From the NCBI GenBank assembly GCA_016181965.1, contig JACOYH010000003.1:1013-65012 (forward strand): a stretch of 64,000 bases of DNA, read 5' to 3'. The translations under genes and the position numbers were made by a program. Under the pieces are notes generated by a model. The model was not told the DNA's origin. It made no database searches and saw only the letters and a list, made by a program, of their open reading frames with translations. This stretch comes from Candidatus Nealsonbacteria bacterium. Lineage in GTDB: Bacteria; Patescibacteriota; Minisyncoccia; Minisyncoccales; MHMH01. The first letter of the stretch is position 1. Each line of letters opens with the position of its first letter. Below, one piece after another: positions 5,043 through 50,229 of this stretch.

Positions 5043-5070
5043 TTGACAGTTTTTTACAGGCGAGTATAAT
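5043..5070 (+). promoter_or_regulatory. Consensus promoter upstream of rpoB (TTGACA-16-TATAAT)
   Basis: TTGACA at 5043-5048 and TATAAT at 5065-5070. The rpoB start codon (TTG at 5076) is only 5 nt downstream. Confidence 0.6.
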
Positions 5071-24376: not shown

Positions 24377-24595
24377 TTAAAGAATCAAGTTGAGTATGGC
24401 CAAGACAACAAAGAGAGCGCCAAAAACCACAGTTCCCCAAAATATTTTTTGCTGAATTCCTCTCCTTGTAGAATAAAAGCCGCTTTCCTGTCCGAAAGCC
24501 GAACCTAAGGCAGTGCCTCTTTGCTGAAAAAGTATGAGAGCCATTAAAATAACGGCGATCGCTATTTGAGCTATTGGGATAATTTTTTCTATCAT
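24377..24595 (-). CDS. secG: Preprotein translocase subunit SecG (probable)
   Basis: Two TM helices flank LFQQRGTALGSAFG. The internal ATG at 24595 gives a 4-nt overlap with the upstream gene. Confidence 0.55.
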   Translation of the reverse strand: MIEKIIPIAQIAIAVILMALILFQQRGTALGSAFGQESGFYSTRRGIQQKIFWGTVVFGALFVVLAILNLIL

Positions 24596-24933
24596 CGCTT
24601 TACGTTGGGCAAGACGAATCCTATTGCCCAGATTATTAGAGTAGTCCAAAGAAGAGGAAGGATACCTGTGATTATAAGCTCGGGGAAGAAAATGTCAACG
24701 GCCCAGACGATTCCCATGTTGATTATCAAACTGAAAATGCCAAGAGTTAAGATTCTCAAGGGCAGAGTTACGGCGGTCAGAATTGGCTTTACGAAAGCGT
24801 TTAATCCGCCCAAGATTAATCCGGCTACCAATAAATCCTGCCAGCTGCCATAGAAGCTTACGCCGTCTACAAACTGAATGGCCAGCCACAGTCCCGCGAG
24901 ACCGGCAAGGGTCTTCAAGATAAAATTTCGCAT
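24592..24933 (-). CDS. YvlD / phage-holin-family-IV-like 4-TM membrane protein
   Basis: 113 aa with GGLNAFVKPIL...LPLRILTLGIFSLIIN, characteristic of this family. Confidence 0.65.
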   Translation of the reverse strand: MRNFILKTLAGLAGLWLAIQFVDGVSFYGSWQDLLVAGLILGGLNAFVKPILTAVTLPLRILTLGIFSLIINMGIVWAVDIFFPELIITGILPLLWTTLIIWAIGFVLPNVKR

Positions 24934-33683: not shown

Positions 33684-33712
33684 TTGACAGATTTGATTTT
33701 TGGGTATATAAT
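33684..33712 (+). promoter_or_regulatory. Perfect consensus promoter TTGACA-17-TATAAT
   Basis: TTGACA at 33684-33689 and TATAAT at 33707-33712. Confidence 0.65.
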
Positions 33713-33742
33713 AGGGATATTAAAGTTCTTTAGGAGGCGGTC

Positions 33743-33952
33743 ATGGCTACGAATGTTTATACAGCGTTGCGGCACCAGAGGCCAAGCGGCATTCCCGTCG
33801 CTTTGGTGATGGCGGGATGTGATCGGAATCACCTTATCTTCGTCCGGGAGTTGGTCGATGCCGGCAGGGTGTCTGACTGGCGGTCGGGCGAGGGCCTGAC
33901 GGTGAGGGACAGCCGCATTGTCTCGCAAACCATAGCAATTGGGCGATCGTAA
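33743..33952 (+). CDS. Orphan 69-codon ORF with no recognisable family; it could instead be a structured ncRNA
   Basis: AGGAGG lies 6 nt before the ATG. By hand count the ORF is ~59% GC, with 9 Arg and 0 Lys. The stop codon sits in the loop of the terminator hairpin. Confidence 0.35.
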   Translation: MATNVYTALRHQRPSGIPVALVMAGCDRNHLIFVRELVDAGRVSDWRSGEGLTVRDSRIVSQTIAIGRS

Positions 33953-33964
33953 GATCGCCCTTTT
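33941..33964 (+). terminator. Rho-independent terminator
   Basis: GGGCGATC-GTAA-GATCGCCC followed by TTTT. Confidence 0.7.
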
Positions 33965-33995
33965 AATTTAAGGGGGACTTTGATACCATTAGATA

Positions 33996-35714
33996 ATGTT
34001 TTCTTCTCCGGTTGAGGAAATTAAGAGTCGGCTGGACATAGTCGAGGTTGTCGGCAGTTATGTCAAATTGCAGAAAGCCGGCGCCAACTTCCGGGCGGTC
34101 TGTCCTTTTCATACAGAAAAACAGCCGTCTTTTTTTGTTTCGCCGGCTCGCCAGTCGTGGCACTGCTTCGGGGGCTGCGGCGAGGGCGGAGATATGTTTA
34201 AGTTCGTGATGAAAATAGAGGGCGTGGAGTTCGGAGACGCCCTGCGCGCATTAGCCCAGAAAGCCGGGGTCGAATTAAAAAAACAAGACCCGGAGTCAGC
34301 TGTCTGGCGGACCGAAAGAAACCGGCTTTATGAAATTTGCGAATTAGCTTGCCGTTTTTTTGAAAAGCAACTCACCGAAAGCGCTATCGGCAAAGAAGCG
34401 CAAAAATATCTCACAGAAAGGGGAATCAGCCAAGAAAGTCTGAAGAAGTGGCGCGTTGGCTACGCGCCGGACGTTTGGCAGGGGCTTTCTGATTTTTTGA
34501 CTTCCTGCGGTTACAAGAAAGACGAAATTCAAAAAGCCGGTCTCGGACTGACTTCTGAAAAAGGTTCTTTTTTTGATCGTTTCCGGGGCAGAATAATTTT
34601 TCCGGTTTTCGATTTGAATTCGCAGGTTATTGGTTTCGGCGGCCGAGTGTTCAAGTCGGATGATCCTGCTAAATATGTTAATACGCCCAGCACTTTACTA
34701 TATGATAAAAGCAGGGTCCTTTATGGTTTAGATAAAGCCAAGATTGAAATAAGAAAGAAAGACGCCTGCATTTTGGTTGAAGGTTATGTTGACGCTATCA
34801 TGTGCTCGCAGGCCGGATTTGAAAATGTTGCGGCTGTTTCTGGCACCGCCCTAACCCCTTTTCAGCTTAGAATTCTGAAAAGATATTCCAATAATTTACT
34901 TACTGCATTTGATATGGATTTGGCGGGCGGTTCAGCTACCAAAAGAGGCATCGAAATGGCGAGAGCCCAGGGCTTCAATATTAAGGTGGCTGTCATGCCG
35001 CAGGGCAAAGACCCGGCAGATATTGTTGCAGAGGATTCACGACAGTGGGAAAAGATAGTTGCCGAAGCCAAGTCCATTCTGCAATTCTTTTTTGAAACCG
35101 CCTTGGCGCGCTTTGACGCAAAGACCCCGGAGGGCAAGCGGGAAATCTCAAGAGAACTTTTGCCGGCCATAAAACGAATTCCCAATAAAATTGAGAGATT
35201 TCATTGGGTGCAGGAATTGGCAAGAAAGCTTGGCGTAACGGAGCAGGTGGTGGAGGAAGAAATGGCACAGACCAAAATCGAACCGCAGCCCTATTATTTT
35301 TTAGAAGAACCCCATCCGCAATCGCCAGCCAAAAGAACGCGCAAGGATATTCTCGGCGAGAGAATTGTTTCATTGGTTCTCAAAGACAAGCAGACGCTGG
35401 AATTATTGAACGAAAATCATTATAATTATCTTGAGGCAAGATTGCGGGCGGTCTTGGACGATTTAAAGAACAATCAGCCGCACGCTCATGCTGAATTTGT
35501 TAATTATCTTGCTCTGCAGGCAGAGATGGAAGAGGGCCTGGATTGCCGTCAGGAAATCCAAACCTGTCTAAAAGAGCTGGAAAATTTGGAAATTAAAAAA
35601 AAGCTTGATGATATTTCACGCAAACTCAAGGCGGCAGAATATGAAAAAGACGCAGGGCGAGTGGATGTATTGATAAAAGAGTTTCATCAATTGTCTAATA
35701 AGTTAATAATATGA
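33996..35714 (+). CDS. dnaG: DNA primase
   Basis: 572 aa with zinc finger [13 protein letters not shown]...HCFGCG and the TOPRIM domain (EGYVDAI). Confidence 0.93.
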
Positions 35715-36862
35715 AAAAAAAGAAGAAAACGACTCTGCCGAAGAAGAAAAAACCGGTAAAAAGAGGGGTGAAGAAAAAACCGCGGAAAGCAAAGCCAAAA
35801 AAGGGCAAGAAGGCGTTGGTCACGCCAGAAAAAATTGAAGGCCTGCTGCAGAGGGGCAAGCAAAGGGGCTTTGTTACCCACGCTGAAATATTGTATCTTT
35901 TCCCGGAAATAGAAAAAGACGTTTCTGGTTTGGAATATCTATATGATGAACTTGAGCACCGGGGCATTGAAGTGAAAGAGGTGGCCGGGCTTTTGGAGAT
36001 AGAGAAAGAAAAGGGTCCCAAGCCCATGGAGAGTGTGCTCGACCCGGTCCAGATGTATCTTAAAGAGATAGGGCAAGTTTCCTTTTTGACGGCCGAAGAA
36101 GAAAAAGAGCTGGCTCGGCAAATTGAGGCAGGGGACACGGAAGCCAAGAAAAAATTAGCCCGGGCCAACCTGCGGCTGGTGGTTTCAATCGCCAAAAAAT
36201 ATATCGGCCGTTCGCCAAATTTAACTTTACTGGATCTTATTCAGGAGGGTAACTTGGGACTGTTTAGAGCGGTAGAAAAATTTGATTGGCGAAGGGGTTA
36301 CAAATTTTCCACCTATGCCACTTGGTGGATCAGGCAGGCCATAACGAGGGCCTTGGCTGATCAGGCAAGAACTATTCGTATTCCGGTGCACATGGTGGAA
36401 ACAATTTCAAAATACACTCAAATTCGCAGGCGTCTGCTGCAGGATTTAGGCAGAGAGCCCTTGCCCGAAGAGATTGCAGCCGAAATGGGAATCGACGTTG
36501 ATAAAGTGCACCATATCCAAAAAATCTCGCAAGAAACCATATCTTTGGAAACACCGGTTGGCGAGGATGAGGAAGACAGCGTTTTGGCAGAATTTATTGA
36601 AGACGAAAAAGTCATCTCGCCCTCCATGGAGGCGGCTAGAACTTTGCTCAAAAATAGATTGGGAGACATTTTGATTGATTTAGCTCCGAGGGAGCAGAAA
36701 ATTTTGGGCATGAGATTCGGCTTGGAAGACGGCATCACTCATACCCTTGAAGAGGTAGGGAAAGAATTCGGCGTAACGCGAGAGAGGATTCGGCAGATAG
36801 AAGCCAAGGCCTTGGATAGGATTAGGGAACACCGCTCTTTGAAAAAATTGCAGGGATATTAA
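35711..36862 (+). CDS. rpoD: RNA polymerase sigma factor RpoD (sigma-70) with a lysine-rich N-terminus
   Basis: 383 aa with regions 1.2-4.2 ([58 protein letters not shown]). Confidence 0.95.
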
Positions 36863-36885: not shown

Positions 36886-36960
36886 TCCCCTGTAGCTCAA
36901 TGGTAGAGCATCTCGCTGTTAACGAGAGGGTTGTAGGTTCGAATCCTACCGGGGGAGCCA
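36886..36960 (+). tRNA. tRNA-Asn (anticodon GUU), CCA encoded
   Basis: Acceptor UCCCCUG/CGGGGGA, anticodon loop CUGUUAA, T-arm GUAGG-UUCGAAU-CCUAC. Confidence 0.93.
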
Positions 36961-36983
36961 TATGGTAAGTAACTCTCGTAGGC

Positions 36984-37021
36984 GTTAAGCGACTCCCGAA
37001 GTCGCTTAACATCGCTTAACA
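36984..37021 (+). repeat. 11-bp hairpin plus a 10-nt tandem duplication just 3' of tRNA-Asn
   Basis: GTTAAGCGACT-CCCGA-AGTCGCTTAAC, then TCGCTTAACA repeated (37002-37011 and 37012-37021). Confidence 0.7.
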
Positions 37022-37116
37022 TTTCAAGCCTTACCGGTCTTGCCTGAAATAAAATCAGATGATATTCTTAAAGAAGGGTCGTATTTTATTATAATTTAAA
37101 CGTTTAAATTAAAATC

Positions 37117-38304
37117 ATGACAATAAAATTACGAGTTATCGCAGATTCCTTGCTTATTCTGGCTCTTGTCTTTAGTTTGGGCGGATTCGGCGGACTTGCA
37201 ACAGAGGCAGCCGGTCAGCCGGAACGAGTAATCGTAACCTTTGACCATGCGGTCAACGAGAGCGCTCGCATTGCCCTTGAGAATGCCGGTGGCAAAATAC
37301 TCAAAGAACTTCCGCTTGTAAACGGCGCAGTTGTGCTTTTGCCGAATGAGGTGGCCGCATCTAATATCGGTATTTTGGCAGGCGTTCGCTCCGTTGAAAA
37401 AGATGCGCTGGTCTTTGCTTTGAAGCCGCCATCGAAGGGAGGCGGTTCCACTCAACCAGCAGAAGTACTTGAGTGGGGCGTTGACCGGATTGACGCTGAT
37501 CTTGCTTGGGCAACCAGTAGGGGATCAGGCGTTAATGTGGCAATCATTGACACCGGCATTGATAAAGACCATGCTGATTTGATTGGTAACCTTAAAGGCG
37601 GCGTGAATTTTGTTTCGAAATCGCCGGTAAAACCAGCAGACCCAAATAAGTGGGACGATGACAACGGACACGGAACACATGTCGCCGGTATTGTCGCCGC
37701 AGCAGATAACGAAATCGGAATCATTGGCACAGCGCCCGAAGCAAACCTTTGGGCGGTGAAAGTTCTTGATCGCAATGGGTCGGGGTATGTCAGCGATGTT
37801 ATTGACGGCATTAATTGGGCTGTTGATAACGGTATGCAGGTCGTGAATATGAGTTTGGGTTCTGGAAGCGATGTGCAAGCTCTGCATGACGCGGTTGATG
37901 CCGCCTATGCCGCCGGCGTTGTGCTCATTGCCGCAGCCGGAAATTCTGGCGACGGCGACGGCTCTACAAATGAGGTGATTTATCCTGCAAAATATTCTTC
38001 AGTGATTGCTGTCGCGGCCACTGCTTCTGACGACTCTACTCCAACTTGGAGTTCGGAAGGCGAGGAAGTAGAGCTTGCCGCACCGGGCGTAAGTATTCGC
38101 TCAACTTGGAATGACGGCCTTTATAACACCATCAGCGGAACTTCTATGGCTTCACCGCATGTTTCCGGAGTTGTTGCCTTGATACTGGAAGATAGCGTTT
38201 TGAGTCCGACCGAAGTGCGCGCAATGCTTCAAGCGACCGCAGATGATCTGGGAGCCGAAGGGCATGACAACTTTTATGGATATGGATTAGTTGACGCGGA
38301 GTAG
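37117..38304 (+). CDS. Secreted subtilisin-like serine protease (S8)
   Basis: 395 aa. Signal/TM peptide and catalytic triad blocks AIIDTGI (Asp), HGTHVAGI (His) and GTSMASPHVSG (Ser). Confidence 0.9.
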   Translation: MTIKLRVIADSLLILALVFSLGGFGGLATEAAGQPERVIVTFDHAVNESARIALENAGGKILKELPLVNGAVVLLPNEVAASNIGILAGVRSVEKDALVFALKPPSKGGGSTQPAEVLEWGVDRIDADLAWATSRGSGVNVAIIDTGIDKDHADLIGNLKGGVNFVSKSPVKPADPNKWDDDNGHGTHVAGIVAAADNEIGIIGTAPEANLWAVKVLDRNGSGYVSDVIDGINWAVDNGMQVVNMSLGSGSDVQALHDAVDAAYAAGVVLIAAAGNSGDGDGSTNEVIYPAKYSSVIAVAATASDDSTPTWSSEGEEVELAAPGVSIRSTWNDGLYNTISGTSMASPHVSGVVALILEDSVLSPTEVRAMLQATADDLGAEGHDNFYGYGLVDAE

Positions 38305-38311
38305 TGAGCGG

Positions 38312-38336
38312 GAAAAAGGGGTCAGGTCCCTTTTTC
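38312..38336. repeat. REP-D left copy
   Basis: GAAAAAGGGGTCAGGTCCCTTTTTC: stem AAAAAGGG/CCCTTTTT, loop GTCAGGT. Confidence 0.8.
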
Positions 38337-38368
38337 TTCTAGATTAAATATGCTATATTGGCTGTATT

Positions 38369-39049
38369 ATGCCTCGATCTCCCAGAATAATTGATGATGA
38401 TGCTATATATCACATCTTGAATCGCGCAAATGGGAGAATGCGTATTTTTGATGACAAAAAAGACTATTTTGCGTTCGAAAAGATTATCATCGAAGCAAAA
38501 AATAAATATCCGGTCGGGATTTTATCTTTTTGTATAATGCCAAACCATTGGCATTTTGTTTTACAACCCAAAAACGGCAAAGATCTAGTCTCCTTTATGC
38601 GCTGGGTAACGCTTACTCATACTCAGAGATGGCTGATAAGTAAAAATATGAAAGGATATGGACACATCTATCAGGGGAGGTATAAATCATTTCCAGTTCA
38701 AAATGATGAACATTTTTTGCAGGTATGTCGGTACGTAGAACGGAATGCCCTACGAGCCCGATTAATAGATAAAGCAGAAGATTGGAGATGGGGGAGCGCT
38801 TGGATTAGGAAGTACGGAAACAAAGAACAAAAAGAACTATTATCGGAATGGCCGGTACGCCTCAATAACGACTACCTTGCCGCATTGAATCAAAAAGACG
38901 ATAATGAGTCAGAGGTATTAAAAGATTTACGCGAATCCGTTAATAGGGGTAAACCGTTTGGATCGGATAACTGGGTTAAGGAAATTGCAAGAAAGCTTAA
39001 CATCGGATCAACATTAAATTTAAAGGGAAGACCAAGAAAAGGGACCTGA
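38369..39049 (+). CDS. IS200/IS605-like Y1 (HUH) transposase, RAYT type
   Basis: 226 aa. AIYHILNRANG, HUH motif MPNHWHFVL, and Tyr motif CRYVERNALRARL...W.WGS. Confidence 0.7.
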   Translation: MPRSPRIIDDDAIYHILNRANGRMRIFDDKKDYFAFEKIIIEAKNKYPVGILSFCIMPNHWHFVLQPKNGKDLVSFMRWVTLTHTQRWLISKNMKGYGHIYQGRYKSFPVQNDEHFLQVCRYVERNALRARLIDKAEDWRWGSAWIRKYGNKEQKELLSEWPVRLNNDYLAALNQKDDNESEVLKDLRESVNRGKPFGSDNWVKEIARKLNIGSTLNLKGRPRKGT

Positions 39050-39058
39050 CCCCTTTTC
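39036..39058. repeat. REP-D right copy (inverted)
   Basis: GAAAAGGGACCTGACCCCTTTTC. The RAYT stop codon TGA lies in its loop. Confidence 0.8.
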
Positions 39059-39079
39059 CTTTCATGATAAAATATATTT

Positions 39080-39463
39080 ATGAATAATCGCAAAATTATC
39101 GAGTGGGTTTTAAAGATTGCCGTCGCCGGCGAGTTTATAGGGCACGGCGTTTTCGCGTTGCAAGGAAAGAAAGCGTGGGTTGACTGGTTTTCTACTTTTG
39201 GGATTTCAGATGTCGGAACAGCAACTCAATTTTTATTTCTTATCGGGATCATAGACCTCACGTTAGCAATTTTAATTCTTATCAGACCTATCCGTATTGT
39301 TTTGCTCTGGATGGCTTTTTGGGGTTTTTGGACAGCATTGGTGCGTCCATTAGTGGGCGAACCAGTTTGGGATTTTGTAGAACGATGGGCTAATTGGGGA
39401 GCGCCGCTTGCGTTGCTTCTACTGATGGGTTTTCCTAAAACCATAAAAGAATGGCTTAAATAA
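39080..39463 (+). CDS. Small 4-TM membrane protein (DoxX-like, uncertain)
   Basis: 127 aa and hydrophobic. No diagnostic motif. Confidence 0.5.
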   Translation: MNNRKIIEWVLKIAVAGEFIGHGVFALQGKKAWVDWFSTFGISDVGTATQFLFLIGIIDLTLAILILIRPIRIVLLWMAFWGFWTALVRPLVGEPVWDFVERWANWGAPLALLLLMGFPKTIKEWLK

Positions 39464-39605
39464 CTATAACTATACGGATAAACATTGGCATCATAAAAAC
39501 AGAATAGTCACAAGAGCAACACTCGCGCATAGGCCAAATCACGATCTAAACGTTGCTACGGCCCATTTCGGCAATGAAATAAAGAGAAGGGTTCCTTGGA
39601 TTCTC

Positions 39606-40079
39606 TTGAGCGTAGTGGCTGGAATCGTGATGGTTTGGCTTGGCTCAACCTATGAAGATGTTTTATCCAGGAAAATAGAGTTGGTATTTTTCATTCCGAT
39701 GATTGTTTATATGAGCGATAGCATCGGGACAGAGACCTTGGCGCTTTTTGTCAGGGAATTAGCTTTAAGGCGGCTGAATCTGAAACGCATCATCCTGAAA
39801 GAAATTTTGGTTGGCCTTTTTCTGGGATTCGCCAGCGGATTTCCAATGGGAGTATTCAGCTATTTTTGGTTAAGGGACGTCTCTCTATCTGCAACCGTGG
39901 CAATCGCCATGATGGTCAATGGCATAATCGCTGTGTTGATAGGTATGCTTCTGCCTATTATTTTTGCAAAACTCAAGAGAGATCCGGCATTGGGAACCGA
40001 TGAGATTACCACCGCCCTATCGGATAATTTAAGCATGCTTATTTATTTGGTTGTGGCAACGCTCATTTTGTTTCGGTGA
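39606..40079 (+). CDS. MgtE-family divalent-cation transporter, transmembrane domain only (possibly a 5'-truncated remnant)
   Basis: TM-domain similarity (IPMIVYMSDSIGTETLALFVRELAL, ...DEITTALSDNLSMLIY). The frame is open from 39447 and encodes the RRVPWILL-type start of the domain, but has no ATG/GTG before the TTG at 39606. No cytosolic N or CBS domains. Confidence 0.5.
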   Translation: MSVVAGIVMVWLGSTYEDVLSRKIELVFFIPMIVYMSDSIGTETLALFVRELALRRLNLKRIILKEILVGLFLGFASGFPMGVFSYFWLRDVSLSATVAIAMMVNGIIAVLIGMLLPIIFAKLKRDPALGTDEITTALSDNLSMLIYLVVATLILFR

Positions 40080-40085
40080 TTTCGC

Positions 40086-40113
40086 TTGACAGCTTTTTAT
40101 GGAGATTTATAAT
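40086..40113 (+). promoter_or_regulatory. Consensus promoter TTGACA-16-TATAAT
   Basis: TTGACA at 40086-40091 and TATAAT at 40108-40113. Confidence 0.6.
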
Positions 40114-40119
40114 TAAATC

Positions 40120-40221
40120 GGATTCAACGCGCCATATTTTTCCGAAGGCCTCCGGAGGGCGTTCTCTGGAAGGGCCGGAAGAAAATACGGATACAGTTCA
40201 TTAAGAAAGGAGGAAAAACGA
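40120..40221 (+). promoter_or_regulatory. Candidate structured 5' leader (class unknown)
   Basis: GC-rich ~100 nt with local hairpins (UCUGG-AAGGG-CCGGA). CCUCC (40159-40163) is complementary to the SD GGAGG (40209-40213). Confidence 0.3.
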
Positions 40222-40380
40222 ATGGACGTATACGCGAGATGGCTTGTCCTATCGCTCGTCTTGCTCGCTTCAGCGTGGCTGGTGTCGCTCGTACCGGGAT
40301 TTCAATCCTGGGTGGCGCCGTCAGTCGGTGTTGTCGCAGCTAAGCTAGTCAGCGTATGGCTGCCTGCAGCCAGTAACTGA
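40222..40380 (+). CDS. 52-aa hydrophobic two-helix peptide (not in the ORF track because it is under 60 aa)
   Basis: AAGGAGG lies 8 nt before the ATG. Product MDVYARWLVLSLVLLASAWLVSLVPGFQSWVAPSVGVVAAKLVSVWLPAASN. Has its own promoter and two terminators. Confidence 0.5.
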   Translation: MDVYARWLVLSLVLLASAWLVSLVPGFQSWVAPSVGVVAAKLVSVWLPAASN

Positions 40381-40424
40381 TAACGGCCTTATCAACTCCG
40401 AAAGGGGGTCAATAATCCTTAATA

Positions 40425-40457
40425 GGGGGAAGAACTGCCCTTCCTCCTATATTTTTC
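40425..40457 (+). terminator. Terminator 1 of the small-peptide unit
   Basis: GGGGGAAG-AACTGCC-CTTCCTCC followed by TATATTTTT. Confidence 0.6.
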
Positions 40458-40460
40458 TCA

Positions 40461-40487
40461 GCGCCTAACAAGGCGCATTTTTATTTT
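40461..40487 (+). terminator. Terminator 2 of the small-peptide unit
   Basis: GCGCC-TAACAA-GGCGC followed by ATTTTTATTTT. Confidence 0.6.
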
Positions 40488-40521
40488 CATTATCAATTAG
40501 ATTTGTGGTATAATAAATAAA

Positions 40522-41337
40522 ATGACAAAAGCGGTTATTCTCATCGCCATTAATTTCCTCATTGTCCTCGCTACCGAGTTTTCCGGAACCTTGTTTTTTG
40601 AGAATGGGGTAATTCATATAATTGCTTTGTTCTTTGTCGTTGCCACGGCGGTTCCCTTGGCTCGCAATTATTACCTCGCCGATCCTATTTTGAAAAAATT
40701 CCTGGTGGCCAGCATATTCGCTTTTCTTTTGTTTGCGGCCTCCCATATTTCAGAGTTTTTCCAATACAAAATTTCCGGTGGATATCCCGACCATATTTTC
40801 GCGATAACCGTGAATTTTTATCTAATGAGTATCTTTTTGATGATATTCGGCTCTGAAATATTCCTCCGCGCCCATTCTGGTTACCGCCACTCCAGAGTTC
40901 ACCTCGTTTTGACGGGCATTGCCCTCGCGGTATTACTGCTGATTTCTTTCTTTTTTTCCATTTATCCGGAAATAATTTCTCTGGCACCGGAAAATCTGGC
41001 GCCCTACGCGTACGGAGTAGCGGCGCTGATGATATCCTTTATATTATGGAGGCGGCTTGTGCGTTTGGGTAATCTTTTTAGCAAATCGCTTGTGGATTTC
41101 TTCCGCTATTTGCAAATAATGCTTATTTTCGTGGTGATTTCCATGATTTTTAATATTTTTTATGAATTTATGGAAGAAGGGCTTGGCATCCCCGCTTACG
41201 AAATAGTGTATTTCAGCCATTTCTTTTTCTACGGCGGTTTGAGCGTCATGTTTCTTGCGTTCGAAGATTTGCTAAAAATTGGCGGAGTGTTCAAAGACAT
41301 CCGCGAACGGCGGAATAATAATAAATTAACCTCATAA
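40522..41337 (+). CDS. Polytopic membrane protein, function unknown
   Basis: 271 aa with ~8 hydrophobic helices. No recognisable motif. Confidence 0.55.
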   Translation: MTKAVILIAINFLIVLATEFSGTLFFENGVIHIIALFFVVATAVPLARNYYLADPILKKFLVASIFAFLLFAASHISEFFQYKISGGYPDHIFAITVNFYLMSIFLMIFGSEIFLRAHSGYRHSRVHLVLTGIALAVLLLISFFFSIYPEIISLAPENLAPYAYGVAALMISFILWRRLVRLGNLFSKSLVDFFRYLQIMLIFVVISMIFNIFYEFMEEGLGIPAYEIVYFSHFFFYGGLSVMFLAFEDLLKIGGVFKDIRERRNNNKLTS

Positions 41338-45969: not shown

Positions 45970-46024
45970 CTTGCCGTTGTTCTCAATTTGACAGAGATTT
46001 TTGCCGCAAGGTATAATGAAATTA

Positions 46025-46240
46025 ATGAAGGAGAAAAATATCACAATTGATAAGCTGGCGCGAATGATTCAGAAGGGGTTTTTAGAGACCACGAAAAAAG
46101 ACGAAGTTAACAAGCGATTTGATAAAATTGAGAATCGCTTAGAAAACATTGAGAAGCTGATCCTCGCCGATCATAAACAACGGATCGAGGAATTGGAAGA
46201 GGCGGTGAAAGAATTGAAAGAACTGCTATCAGTAAAATAA
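46025..46240 (+). CDS. Small coiled-coil hypothetical protein
   Basis: TTGACA-18-TATAAT (TATAAT at 46012-46017), with an in-frame ATG at 46025 7 nt later. Heptad-rich sequence. The ORF-track start at 46001 is less likely. Confidence 0.5.
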   Translation: MKEKNITIDKLARMIQKGFLETTKKDEVNKRFDKIENRLENIEKLILADHKQRIEELEEAVKELKELLSVK

Positions 46241-49920: not shown

Positions 49921-49950
49921 TTGACACTGTATTTTGGGAAAAGATATAAT
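49921..49950 (+). promoter_or_regulatory. Promoter of the ferredoxin/OFOR operon (TTGACA-18-TATAAT)
   Basis: TTGACA at 49921-49926 and TATAAT at 49945-49950. Confidence 0.5.
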
Positions 49951-49986: not shown

Positions 49987-50229
49987 ATGCCAAAAGTTAA
50001 AGTAGTTTTTGATAGGACAAATTGCATCGGGGCGCAGTCGTGCTCGATTGTCTGCCCGAAATTTTGGAAAATAGCCGAGGACGGCAAGGCAGATTTACTT
50101 GGCTCTAAAGAAAATCCGCAAACCGGCAAATACGAGCTGGAAAAAGAAGTCAGTAATGAAGACGCAGTATGCTTGAGGGAATCGGCTGGCGCTTGTCCGG
50201 TGCGAGTCATCACTTTTAGCGAGGAATAA
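49987..50229 (+). CDS. Small ferredoxin (single-cluster type)
   Basis: 80 aa from the internal ATG, with C.G...C...CP and a distal CP motif (CIGAQSCSIVCP ... ACP). Confidence 0.75.
   Translation: MPKVKVVFDRTNCIGAQSCSIVCPKFWKIAEDGKADLLGSKENPQTGKYELEKEVSNEDAVCLRESAGACPVRVITFSEE

What the first reader, a model, noticed from the sequence alone, without database searches (positions are those of the whole stretch)
40086..40487. Autonomous mini-operon: consensus promoter, ~100-nt structured GC-rich leader, 52-aa hydrophobic peptide and double terminator (type I toxin-like or riboswitch-controlled)
Seen in sequence. TTGACA-16-TATAAT (40086-40113) is followed by a leader rich in GGAAG/CCGGA elements with local hairpins, for example UCUGG-AAGGG-CCGGA. 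The leader also contains the palindrome CCUCCGGAGG, whose CCUCC (40159-40163) can pair with the real SD GGAGG (40209-40213). After AAGGAGG-8 nt-ATG comes a 52-codon ORF (40222-40380) encoding MDVYARWLVLSLVLLASAWLVSLVPGFQSWVAPSVGVVAAKLVSVWLPAASN, two predicted membrane helices. Two consecutive intrinsic terminators follow (40425-40457 and 40461-40487). The ORF is below the 60-aa cutoff of the supplied track. Established knowledge: type I toxins are 30-60-aa hydrophobic peptides with long structured 5' UTRs that occlude the SD. Small ORFs can also sit behind riboswitches. Inference: the cassette is a candidate type I toxin, although I found no convincing antisense promoter. Alternatively it may be a ligand-controlled small membrane peptide. 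From memory only, the repeated GGAAG...CGGAAG pattern after CGUUC faintly resembles the glutamine-II/glnA-type aptamers. I cannot confirm that.
Basis: partly seen in the sequence, partly recalled or inferred. Interest (0 to 1): 0.6.

Follow-up and report, generated by a model that had tools for sequence, protein, structure and literature searches.

The report
Unannotated orphan small membrane-peptide gene
This is a real, self-contained small gene in a Candidatus Nealsonbacteria genome that most likely makes a 52-residue two-helix membrane peptide, but the peptide has no relatives anywhere and nothing supports a riboswitch or a type I toxin design, so it is an ordinary orphan small gene of unknown role.

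Summary
The sequence features are real. There is a perfect TTGACA-16-TATAAT promoter, a leader of about 101 nt, AAGGAGG-8 nt-ATG, a 52-codon ORF ending TGATAA, and two intrinsic terminators. The promoter is one of six perfect sigma-70 promoters in the window (0.03 expected), so transcription is very likely. Support for coding: the consensus SD at ideal spacing, significant 3-nt periodicity (p≈0.01, absent from both UTRs), and a confident helix-turn-helix model. Evidence against coding: atypical codon usage (1.9th percentile), an ORF length reachable by chance (P≈0.14), and no call in GenBank. Rfam gives nothing at E≤10, so glnA and Downstream-peptide are not matched. The leader is one hairpin (-22.6 kcal/mol) that is not exceptional for its composition. 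The SD is predicted >90% unpaired. No credible antisense promoter exists. The peptide has no homolog among 5.8 billion or 1.84 billion proteins, JGI metagenomes, IMG/VR, phages or plasmids. The closest available relatives of both flanking genes (MgtE ≤80%, 271-aa protein ≤65% identity) lack the cassette. Best reading: a species-restricted, probably constitutively expressed small membrane-protein gene. The host is a CPR bacterium (Candidatus Nealsonbacteria MAG, locus tags HYT21_). Interest is low to moderate.

The parts
40086..40113 (+). Sigma-70 consensus promoter TTGACA-16 nt-TATAAT; predicted TSS about 40120-40121
   Evidence: 12/12 match. It is one of six perfect matches in the window against 0.03 expected from shuffles. 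A full-length primary sigma factor (regions 1.1-4) is encoded at 35711-36862.
40120..40221 (+). Predicted 5' UTR of about 101 nt. It is unusually long for this genome, where most genes lack an SD and many look leaderless.
   Evidence: Position of the -10 box relative to the ATG. Upstream regions of 32 genes. No Rfam match at E<=10. Fold z-score -1.34.
40137..40183 (+). Imperfect leader hairpin. It contains the palindrome CCUCCGGAGG (40149-40158) and the GGAAG repeats.
   Evidence: MFE -22.6 kcal/mol. It is present in the MFE and centroid folds of the whole transcript. The 61-nt stretch 40130-40190 around it gives z -1.77, with 9/200 shuffles as stable. No U tract follows it, so it is not a terminator or attenuator.
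40207..40213 (+). Shine-Dalgarno AAGGAGG, 8 nt before the ATG
   Evidence: Sequence. AAGGAGG occurs only 5 times on the + strand of the window. Predicted 0.89-0.97 unpaired per base in the ensemble, displayed in an 18-nt loop.
40222..40383 (+). 52-codon ORF (ATG..TGA at 40378-40380) plus an in-frame second stop TAA at 40381-40383. Product: MDVYARWLVLSLVLLASAWLVSLVPGFQSWVAPSVGVVAAKLVSVWLPAASN
   Evidence: ORF list. 3-nt periodicity MI 0.080, p=0.0096, comparable to real genes. GRAVY 1.24. AlphaFold2 helical hairpin, pLDDT 88.8. Codon usage is atypical, with LLR at the 1.9th percentile. No homologs.
40422..40460 (+). Intrinsic terminator 1: 11-bp stem, 7-nt loop and tail AUUUUUCUCA. Its 3' arm carries a second CCUCC at 40443-40447.
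   Evidence: Terminator scan. -15.1 kcal/mol. 13-nt complementarity of its 3' arm to the SD region (I3; duplex -13.4 kcal/mol).
40461..40487 (+). Intrinsic terminator 2: GCGCCU-AACA-AGGCGC plus AUUUUUAUUUU
   Evidence: Terminator scan. -9.5 kcal/mol. It is followed by the downstream gene's own extended -10 promoter (TG-G-TATAAT 40506-40514), 7 nt before ATG 40522.

Best explanation
This is an unannotated, species-restricted, independently transcribed small protein gene of a Candidatus Nealsonbacteria (CPR) bacterium.

Proposed mechanism:
- A perfect sigma-70 promoter starts an RNA of about 340-370 nt.
- The 101-nt leader carries one local hairpin and an exposed consensus Shine-Dalgarno site.
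- Ribosomes translate a 52-residue peptide that folds as a hydrophobic helix-turn(VPG)-helix hairpin and inserts into the cytoplasmic membrane.
- Two tandem intrinsic terminators end the transcript. They insulate the next gene, which has its own promoter abutting its start codon (leaderless).
- Expression is predicted to be strong and constitutive. I see no ligand control and no antisense control.

What is shown from sequence and computation: the promoter, the SD, the ORF, its periodicity, the terminators, the accessibility of the SD, and the lack of homologs.

What is inferred: transcription, translation, membrane insertion and any cellular role. The role most consistent with the anatomy is a small accessory or modulatory membrane protein. 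It may also be a young gene with little or no function.
For: - Promoter is 12/12. It belongs to a set of six perfect promoters (0.03 expected), and the other five sit upstream of plausible genes: rpoB, a SecG-like ORF, a ferredoxin-like ORF and two small ORFs.
- AAGGAGG-8 nt-ATG in a genome where SDs are rare.
- The ORF fills the space between the SD and the terminators and ends in tandem stops.
- The ORF has 3-nt periodicity at p=0.0096, with G-rich first and T-rich second codon positions. Leader and 3' UTR show none.
- The SD is predicted about 90% or more unpaired.
- The peptide has one clear and one borderline hydrophobic segment separated by VPG. It is modelled as a helical hairpin with pLDDT 88.8.
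- Both terminators are strong.
- The cassette is identical in the independent Logan assemblies that carry it, which argues against an assembly artefact. L001 and L002 hold it whole. L016 holds it cut at its contig end and was not aligned.
Against: - Codon usage is atypical. The in-frame log-likelihood ratio is at the 1.9th percentile of real 52-codon chunks, and an antisense-frame model scores slightly better.
- An open frame this long has P of about 0.14 given the local composition. All three + frames are open for at least 34 codons.
- The GenBank annotation skips the ORF. My reading of the tags: HYT21_00560 for the 127-aa gene and HYT21_00570 for the 271-aa gene leave one tag between them, presumably the MgtE entry MBI2042234.1. 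The peptide is on record only from Logan.
- There are no homologs, so no test of purifying selection is possible.
- The nearest relatives of both flanking genes lack the cassette.
- No expression data exist.
- AlphaFold2 on a single hydrophobic sequence tends to give helices regardless.
Confidence: 0.58

Rival explanations
1. Non-coding RNA: the promoter-to-terminator unit makes a stable RNA of about 340-370 nt, and the 52-codon ORF is incidental.
For: - Codon usage is atypical for the genome.
- ORF length is not improbable by chance, P=0.14.
- The region is GC-richer than its surroundings (the ORF is 0.583 GC against 0.469 for the genes).
- Whole-transcript fold z is -3.44.
- A long leader and a strong SD are atypical for this genome's mRNAs.
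- PGAP did not call the ORF.
Against: - No Rfam family matches at E<=10, and there is no tmRNA.
- The ORF region folds no better than shuffles (z -1.33). The excess structure probably lies in the terminators and the 5' hairpin.
- A consensus SD at ideal spacing from an ATG is unlikely by chance.
- The ORF has significant codon periodicity.
Confidence: 0.15
2. Type I toxin-antitoxin toxin: the peptide is a membrane-damaging toxin whose translation is held in check by an undetected antisense or trans-acting RNA, or by a 5'-3' fold-back.
For: - A small hydrophobic peptide with its own promoter, a long 5' UTR and a strong terminator.
- Two CCUCC anti-SD-like elements. The one in the terminator-1 3' arm (40443-40447) could form a -13.4 kcal/mol duplex with the SD region, reminiscent of the fold-back inhibition known from hok and aapA1 mRNAs.
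Against: - The SD is predicted 0.89-0.97 unpaired, because both anti-SD elements sit in more stable local hairpins of -22.6 and -15.1 kcal/mol.
- No minus-strand promoter of 9/12 or better lies within 40100-40660. The best nearby -10 (GATAAT 40494-40489, 8/12 in total) is destroyed in strain variant L002.
- The terminators are not bidirectional, since no A tract lies upstream of them.
- There is no room for a divergent sRNA. The MgtE stop is 7 nt before the -35 box.
- No hits in Pfam, NCBIfam, PHROGs or PADLOC, and no further copy in the window.
- Known toxins usually have a single TM helix (from established knowledge).
Confidence: 0.1
3. Expressed but functionless young sequence. It could be a de novo proto-gene or the debris of a recent insertion or rearrangement in a variable region that happens to carry good signals.
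For: - Strictly species-restricted.
- Absent from loci of the nearest relatives.
- The neighbourhood looks rearranged or decaying. A tRNA-Asn, a RAYT-like transposase and an MgtE whose ancestral ATG is now ACG lie directly upstream.
- The only strain difference in 2 kb is an indel at the cassette's 3' edge.
- Atypical codon usage and GC content.
Against: - A perfect promoter, a consensus SD, an ATG, tandem stops and tandem terminators together are hard to get without selection.
- No flanking direct or inverted repeats mark an insertion.
- No similarity to any other frame or gene.
Confidence: 0.1
4. Cis-regulatory leader: a riboswitch (glnA or Downstream-peptide-like), an RNA thermometer, or a leader-peptide attenuator controlling read-through into the 271-aa gene.
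For: - A 101-nt leader with a GC-rich hairpin and GGAAG repeats.
- In the leader-only fold, UUUUUCC can pair with the SD.
- A small ORF followed by terminators upstream of another gene.
Against: - No Rfam hit at E<=10 with permissive filters.
- Leader stability is not significant.
- There is no terminator or SD-sequestering platform. The SD is open in the ensemble.
- The downstream gene has its own extended -10 promoter 7 nt before its ATG and no SD, so read-through RNA would translate it poorly.
- The peptide has no run of a regulatory amino acid.
Confidence: 0.04

Closest known systems
Bacterial small membrane proteins encoded by stand-alone sORFs (for example MgtS, MgrB, MgtR, AcrZ, KdpF, CydX)
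   Same: Under 60 residues and strongly hydrophobic. Encoded by a short, easily missed ORF with its own expression signals. It lies next to transporter and membrane-protein genes (a TM-only MgtE upstream, a 271-aa polytopic protein downstream).
   Different: No sequence relationship to any of them. Two predicted helices where most of these have one. No evidence of co-regulation or interaction with the neighbours. The relatives of those neighbours have no such ORF. The comparison with named examples rests on established knowledge, not on a test here.
Type I toxin-antitoxin toxins (Hok/Gef, TisB, Ldr, Fst, TxpA/BsrG, AapA1)
   Same: Size range, hydrophobicity, an independent promoter, a long 5' UTR, a Rho-independent terminator, and anti-SD-like CCUCC elements in the same RNA.
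   Different: No antitoxin RNA gene or promoter was found. The SD is predicted accessible. The terminators are not bidirectional. There is no family homology and no paralogs.
glnA (RF01739) and Downstream-peptide (RF01704) glutamine-II type RNA motifs
   Same: Only the superficial arrangement of a structured element near a short ORF, and some GGAAG-like strings.
   Different: cmscan against Rfam 15 gives no match to these or any other family in 39950-40650, even at E<=10. Those motifs are known from cyanobacteria and marine metagenomes (from memory), not from CPR.
Other small stand-alone genes of the same genome with perfect promoters (69-aa ORF 33743-33952; about 71-aa ORF 46025-46240; ferredoxin-like ORF 49988-50229)
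   Same: The same perfect TTGACA/TATAAT promoter class and a terminator-like hairpin with a T run read downstream in the sequence. The 69-aa ORF also has a consensus AGGAGG SD, is GC-rich and is missing from GenBank proteins.
   Different: Those ORFs are hydrophilic, have short or no leaders and a single such hairpin, and share no sequence similarity with the cassette.

Membership tests
Type I toxin-antitoxin system | Small (about 20-60 aa) hydrophobic, membrane-active peptide ORF | tested here: met
   52 aa, GRAVY 1.24, TM-grade first segment. Helical hairpin model.
Type I toxin-antitoxin system | A cis-antisense or nearby trans-encoded antitoxin RNA with its own promoter | tested here: not met
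   No minus-strand promoter of 9/12 or better lies between 40100 and 40660. The best nearby -10 is 8/12 in total and is destroyed in variant L002. No space exists for a divergent gene upstream. A weak or non-sigma-70 promoter, or a distant trans RNA, cannot be excluded.
Type I toxin-antitoxin system | Toxin mRNA folded so that the SD is sequestered (5' UTR or 5'-3' long-distance interaction) | tested here: not met
   SD bases are 0.89-0.97 unpaired in the partition function of 40120-40458. The candidate anti-SD elements are in more stable local hairpins. This is a thermodynamic prediction only.
Type I toxin-antitoxin system | Homology to a described toxin family, or multiple paralogous copies | tested here: not met
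   No match in Pfam, NCBIfam, PHROGs or PADLOC. No homolog in the 5.8 billion or 1.84 billion protein sets. No paralog in the window or fetched loci.
Type I toxin-antitoxin system | Toxicity on overexpression, neutralised by the RNA | not testable with these tools
   Requires an experiment.
Riboswitch (glnA RF01739, Downstream-peptide RF01704, or any Rfam cis-regulator) | Match to the family covariance model | tested here: not met
   Nothing at gathering score in the window. Nothing in the leader at E<=10.
Riboswitch (glnA RF01739, Downstream-peptide RF01704, or any Rfam cis-regulator) | Expression platform: a terminator or an SD-sequestering helix that alternates with the aptamer | tested here: not met
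   No U tract follows the leader hairpin. The SD is open in the MFE, the centroid and the ensemble.
Riboswitch (glnA RF01739, Downstream-peptide RF01704, or any Rfam cis-regulator) | Conserved structure with covariation across species | not testable with these tools
   No homologous sequence exists in any collection searched. The three available copies are 100% identical.
Sigma-70 promoter / intrinsic terminator transcription unit | Consensus -35 and -10 hexamers with 16-18 nt spacing; a GC-rich hairpin followed by a U tract | tested here: met
   12/12 promoter and two terminator hits. Genome-wide enrichment of perfect promoters. A primary sigma factor is encoded in the window.
Protein-coding small ORF | Translation signals plus a coding signature | tested here: inconclusive
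   For: SD and ATG, tandem stops, periodicity at p=0.0096. Against: codon LLR at the 1.9th percentile, chance ORF length P=0.14, no homologs for dN/dS.

The most novel reading that the evidence does not exclude
The peptide is a lineage-specific, strongly expressed membrane-active effector of an episymbiotic CPR bacterium. It could be a toxin or pore-former used against itself (a type I-like system with an unrecognised antitoxin) or against the host cell's membrane. It would have arisen de novo or by recent acquisition in a variable region next to a tRNA and a RAYT-like transposase.
Probability: 0.08. Interest if true: 0.6.

Novelty: new member of a known kind. Interest (0 to 1): 0.25.

Why it matters
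If the peptide is made, it adds one more unannotated small membrane protein to a CPR genome. The case shows that annotation pipelines skip such genes even when they carry textbook signals. It also comes with a useful side observation: this Nealsonbacteria genome combines perfect sigma-70 promoters with mostly SD-less, apparently leaderless genes, so its few SD-led, long-leader genes stand out. Because the gene is confined to one species-level population and has no homologs, it cannot currently inform a general mechanism. Its value is as a candidate for a metatranscriptomic or heterologous-expression check. It is not a discovery in its own right.

Tried and rejected
1. Rfam at gathering score (whole window) and at E<=10 (39950-40650): only tRNAs elsewhere and two chance hits outside the leader. 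ARAGORN found no tmRNA.
2. Peptide homology gave nothing. Searches: Pfam, NCBIfam, PHROGs, PADLOC, PDB sequences, Foldseek against PDB; the 5.8-billion word-indexed search and full HMMER against 1.84 billion representatives, which found only the peptide itself; IMG/VR.
3. The JGI metagenome scan gave one hit, L006. I rejected it as spurious. It is a high-GC contig where the match (APSVGVVAA...) lies out of frame or antisense to a long repetitive ORF.
4. DNA search of the 405-nt cassette against phages and plasmids: no match.
5. Positional orthologs via the downstream 271-aa protein (GTDB genomes and the 5.8-billion set): the nearest relative is 65% identical and all lack the cassette.
6. Positional orthologs via MgtE: the nearest relatives are 72-80% identical. 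Downstream they carry a tRNA, a terminator plus a convergent gene, or an adjacent gene, never the cassette.
7. Repeats, mobile-element ends and REP-like copies of the hairpins: none in the window.
8. Remnant-gene idea: the minus-strand frames carry stops, and conceptual translations of the other frames hit no Pfam family.
9. Population variation for a selection test: L001 is identical, and L002 differs only in an indel downstream of terminator 2.
10. A literature search for leaderless or SD usage in Patescibacteria returned nothing specific.

Full report
**Observation**

- TTGACA (40086-40091), a 16-nt spacer and TATAAT (40108-40113) form a 12/12 sigma-70 match.
- AAGGAGG lies at 40207-40213, 8 nt before ATG 40222. 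The ORF runs 52 codons to TGA 40378-40380 and is followed in frame by TAA.
- Two terminator-like hairpins follow. One is at 40422-40450 (11 bp, -15.1 kcal/mol, tail AUUUUUCUCA). The other is at 40461-40476 (6 bp, -9.5 kcal/mol, tail AUUUUUAUUUU).
- One coordinate is wrong. The palindrome CCUCCGGAGG is at 40149-40158, so its CCUCC is at 40149-40153 and not 40159-40163.

**Is it more than chance?**

My scan of the whole window finds six perfect TTGACA-N16-18-TATAAT sites and five more at 11/12. Composition-preserving shuffles give 0.03 perfect sites and 1.5 sites at 11/12 or better.

The other perfect sites sit upstream of plausible genes:
- rpoB, at 5043;
- a 69-aa ORF, at 33684;
- a leaderless ORF of about 71 aa, at 45988;
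- a ferredoxin-like ORF, at 49921;
- a SecG-like ORF on the minus strand, at 24698.

A full-length primary sigma factor is encoded at 35711-36862. So this organism clearly uses consensus promoters, and the one at 40086 is very likely functional. The two terminators are the best-ranked in the 5-kb scan.

**Organism and context**

- The downstream 271-aa membrane protein is 100% identical to GenBank HYT21_00570 of a Candidatus Nealsonbacteria MAG. Its nearest relatives, at 65% identity or less, are other Nealsonbacteria from groundwater.
- The surrounding genes are core genes: uvrA, groEL, dnaG, rpoD, typA and a DEAD-box helicase.
- Directly upstream lie tRNA-Asn, an S8 protease, a RAYT/IS200-like tyrosine transposase, a 127-aa membrane protein and a TM-only MgtE.
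- Most genes in the window have no SD. Several have a -10 box 6-8 nt before the ATG, which suggests leaderless mRNAs. The next gene at 40522 is one of them (TG-G-TATAAT 40506-40514).
- A 101-nt leader with a consensus SD is therefore unusual for this genome.

**The leader**

- Rfam 15 gives nothing here, either at gathering thresholds or at E<=10 with permissive filters. The only two E<=10 hits (PsrR1, GadY) are chance matches outside the leader. The glnA and Downstream-peptide idea is therefore refuted as a membership claim.
- Structurally the leader is one imperfect 47-nt hairpin (40137-40183, -22.6 kcal/mol) followed by an A-rich stretch that carries the SD.
- Neither the leader (z -1.34) nor the 61-nt stretch around the hairpin (z -1.77) is exceptional against dinucleotide shuffles.
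- The z of -3.44 for the full transcript probably comes mainly from the terminators and the 5' hairpin, because the ORF region alone gives z -1.33.
- In the MFE, the centroid and the partition function of the full transcript, the SD sits in an 18-nt loop. Each SD base is 0.89-0.97 unpaired. Only the AUG is in a weak 7-bp stem.
- Both CCUCC elements could in principle pair with the SD. One is in the leader hairpin. The other, at 40443-40447, is in the 3' arm of terminator 1. Their duplex energies are -9.7 and -13.4 kcal/mol. Both are held in more stable local hairpins.
- So there is no predicted SD occlusion and no expression platform.

**Coding or not?**

For coding:
- the consensus SD at ideal spacing from an ATG;
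- the tandem stops;
- an ORF that fills the transcript;
- significant 3-nt periodicity (mutual information 0.080, permutation p=0.0096, equal to the median of real genes), with G-rich first and T-rich second positions, while both UTRs show none;
- a product with a clear hydrophobic helix, a VPG break and a second, borderline hydrophobic helix, modelled by AlphaFold2 as helix 3-23 and helix 27-51 with mean pLDDT 88.8.

Against coding:
- The codon-usage log-likelihood ratio is at the 1.9th percentile of 52-codon chunks of this window's genes, and an antisense model scores slightly better.
- The local GC-rich composition gives an ORF at least this long with P=0.14.
- GenBank does not annotate it. 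HYT21_00560 (the 127-aa gene) and HYT21_00570 (the 271-aa gene) leave one tag between them, presumably the MgtE entry MBI2042234.1. The peptide is on record only from Logan assemblies.

On balance I rate translation as more likely than not.

**Relatives**

- The peptide has no relatives. The word-indexed search of 5.8 billion proteins and a full HMMER pass over 1.84 billion representatives return only the peptide itself.
- IMG/VR gives nothing.
- The single JGI metagenome hit (L006) is a low-complexity match inside a high-GC repetitive ORF, and I reject it.
- The DNA has no match in phages or plasmids and no second copy in the window or in any fetched locus.
- Caveat: for a 52-residue hydrophobic query against databases of this size, only fairly close homologs could reach significance.
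- Anchoring on the flanking genes does not help. The 271-aa relatives (65% or less) have other genes about 25 nt upstream. The MgtE relatives (72-80%) are followed by a tRNA, a terminator and a convergent gene, or an adjacent gene.
- Two other assemblies hold the whole cassette and are identical across it. A third (L016) carries it cut at its contig end and was not aligned. The only strain difference in 2 kb is a 21-nt indel just after terminator 2.
- Hence neither dN/dS nor covariation can be computed.

**Type I toxin reading**

- Size and hydrophobicity fit. The system-defining features do not.
- No minus-strand promoter of 9/12 or better lies between 40100 and 40660.
- The best nearby -10 (GATAAT 40494-40489, 8/12 in total) is destroyed in variant L002.
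- The terminators have no upstream A tract, so they are not bidirectional.
- MgtE ends 7 nt before the -35 box, which leaves no room for a divergent sRNA.
- The SD is predicted open.
- There is no family homology and no paralogs.
- I keep this reading at about 0.1, because a distant trans-acting RNA or a non-consensus promoter cannot be excluded.

**Attenuator reading**

This reading is unlikely. The downstream gene has its own promoter abutting its ATG and no SD, so the tandem terminators look like insulation and not regulation.

**Best explanation**

This is a species-restricted, unannotated, independently and probably constitutively expressed small gene for a two-helix membrane peptide. Its role is unknown. 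The anatomy best fits a small accessory or modulatory membrane protein. The rearranged, possibly decaying neighbourhood also allows a young gene with little function.

Signs of that neighbourhood:
- a tRNA and a RAYT-like transposase nearby;
- an MgtE whose ancestral ATG is ACG here, while 45 upstream codons remain 79% identical to a relative.

The finding is real but ordinary in kind. It is a new member of the broad class of small hydrophobic sORF products. It does not justify the riboswitch or toxin labels.

Noticed in passing
window 5043-5070 (+), 33684-33712 (+), 40086-40113 (+), 45988-46017 (+), 49921-49950 (+), 24698-24671 (-): There are six perfect TTGACA-N16-18-TATAAT promoters in 64 kb (0.03 expected), plus five sites at 11/12. 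This CPR genome uses textbook sigma-70 consensus promoters to an unusual degree.
   Followed up: partly
window 33684-33965: A second small cassette lies right after tRNA-Ser. It has a perfect promoter, AGGAGG-5 nt-ATG, a GC-rich hydrophilic 69-aa ORF (33743-33952) and a terminator-like hairpin read in the sequence (gggcgatcgtaagatcgccc + tttt). It has no Pfam or PADLOC match. It is on record only from Logan assemblies, so it is presumably also unannotated in GenBank.
   Followed up: partly
window-wide, e.g. ATG 40522, 38369, 39080, 46025: Most genes lack a Shine-Dalgarno sequence. Several have a -10 box 6-8 nt before the start codon, which suggests widespread leaderless translation. Only a handful of genes (40222, 33743, 44515, 46347) have a clear SD.
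   Followed up: partly
window 39447-40079: The upstream MgtE is a TM-only form, common in CPR at about 180-200 aa. Here the reading frame is open and 79% identical to a relative for 45 codons upstream of the annotated TTG start, but it contains no start codon. The relative's ATG aligns with ACG at 39474-39476. This points to start-codon loss, an unusual initiation, or an N-truncated protein.
   Followed up: partly
window 40490-40505 vs L002 810-845: Strain variant L002 (SRR12113383) differs from the window in 2 kb only by a 21-nt insertion (TTTGTCGTTCATACTTCACGA) and a few substitutions. These lie between terminator 2 and the promoter of the 271-aa gene.
   Followed up: no
window 36886-39463: tRNA-Asn is followed by a GC-richer S8/mycosin-like protease, a 226-aa RAYT/IS200-like tyrosine transposase and an orphan 127-aa membrane protein. 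This block is not syntenic with the Nealsonbacteria relatives, where ClpB and a 240-aa protein precede the 271-aa gene. It may be a variable or island-like region.
   Followed up: partly
window 24698-24671 (-) and 24592-24933 (-): A perfect promoter lies inside the 3' part of a 113-aa membrane-protein ORF and points at a SecG-like small ORF (about 24584-24377). It is an internal promoter within a coding sequence.
   Followed up: no
window 46025-46240 and 49988-50229: There are two further small stand-alone genes behind perfect promoters. One is a leaderless, coiled-coil-like protein of about 71 aa, with a terminator-like hairpin and T run read downstream in the sequence. The other is an 80-aa ferredoxin-like protein with the motif CIGAQSCSIVCP.
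   Followed up: no
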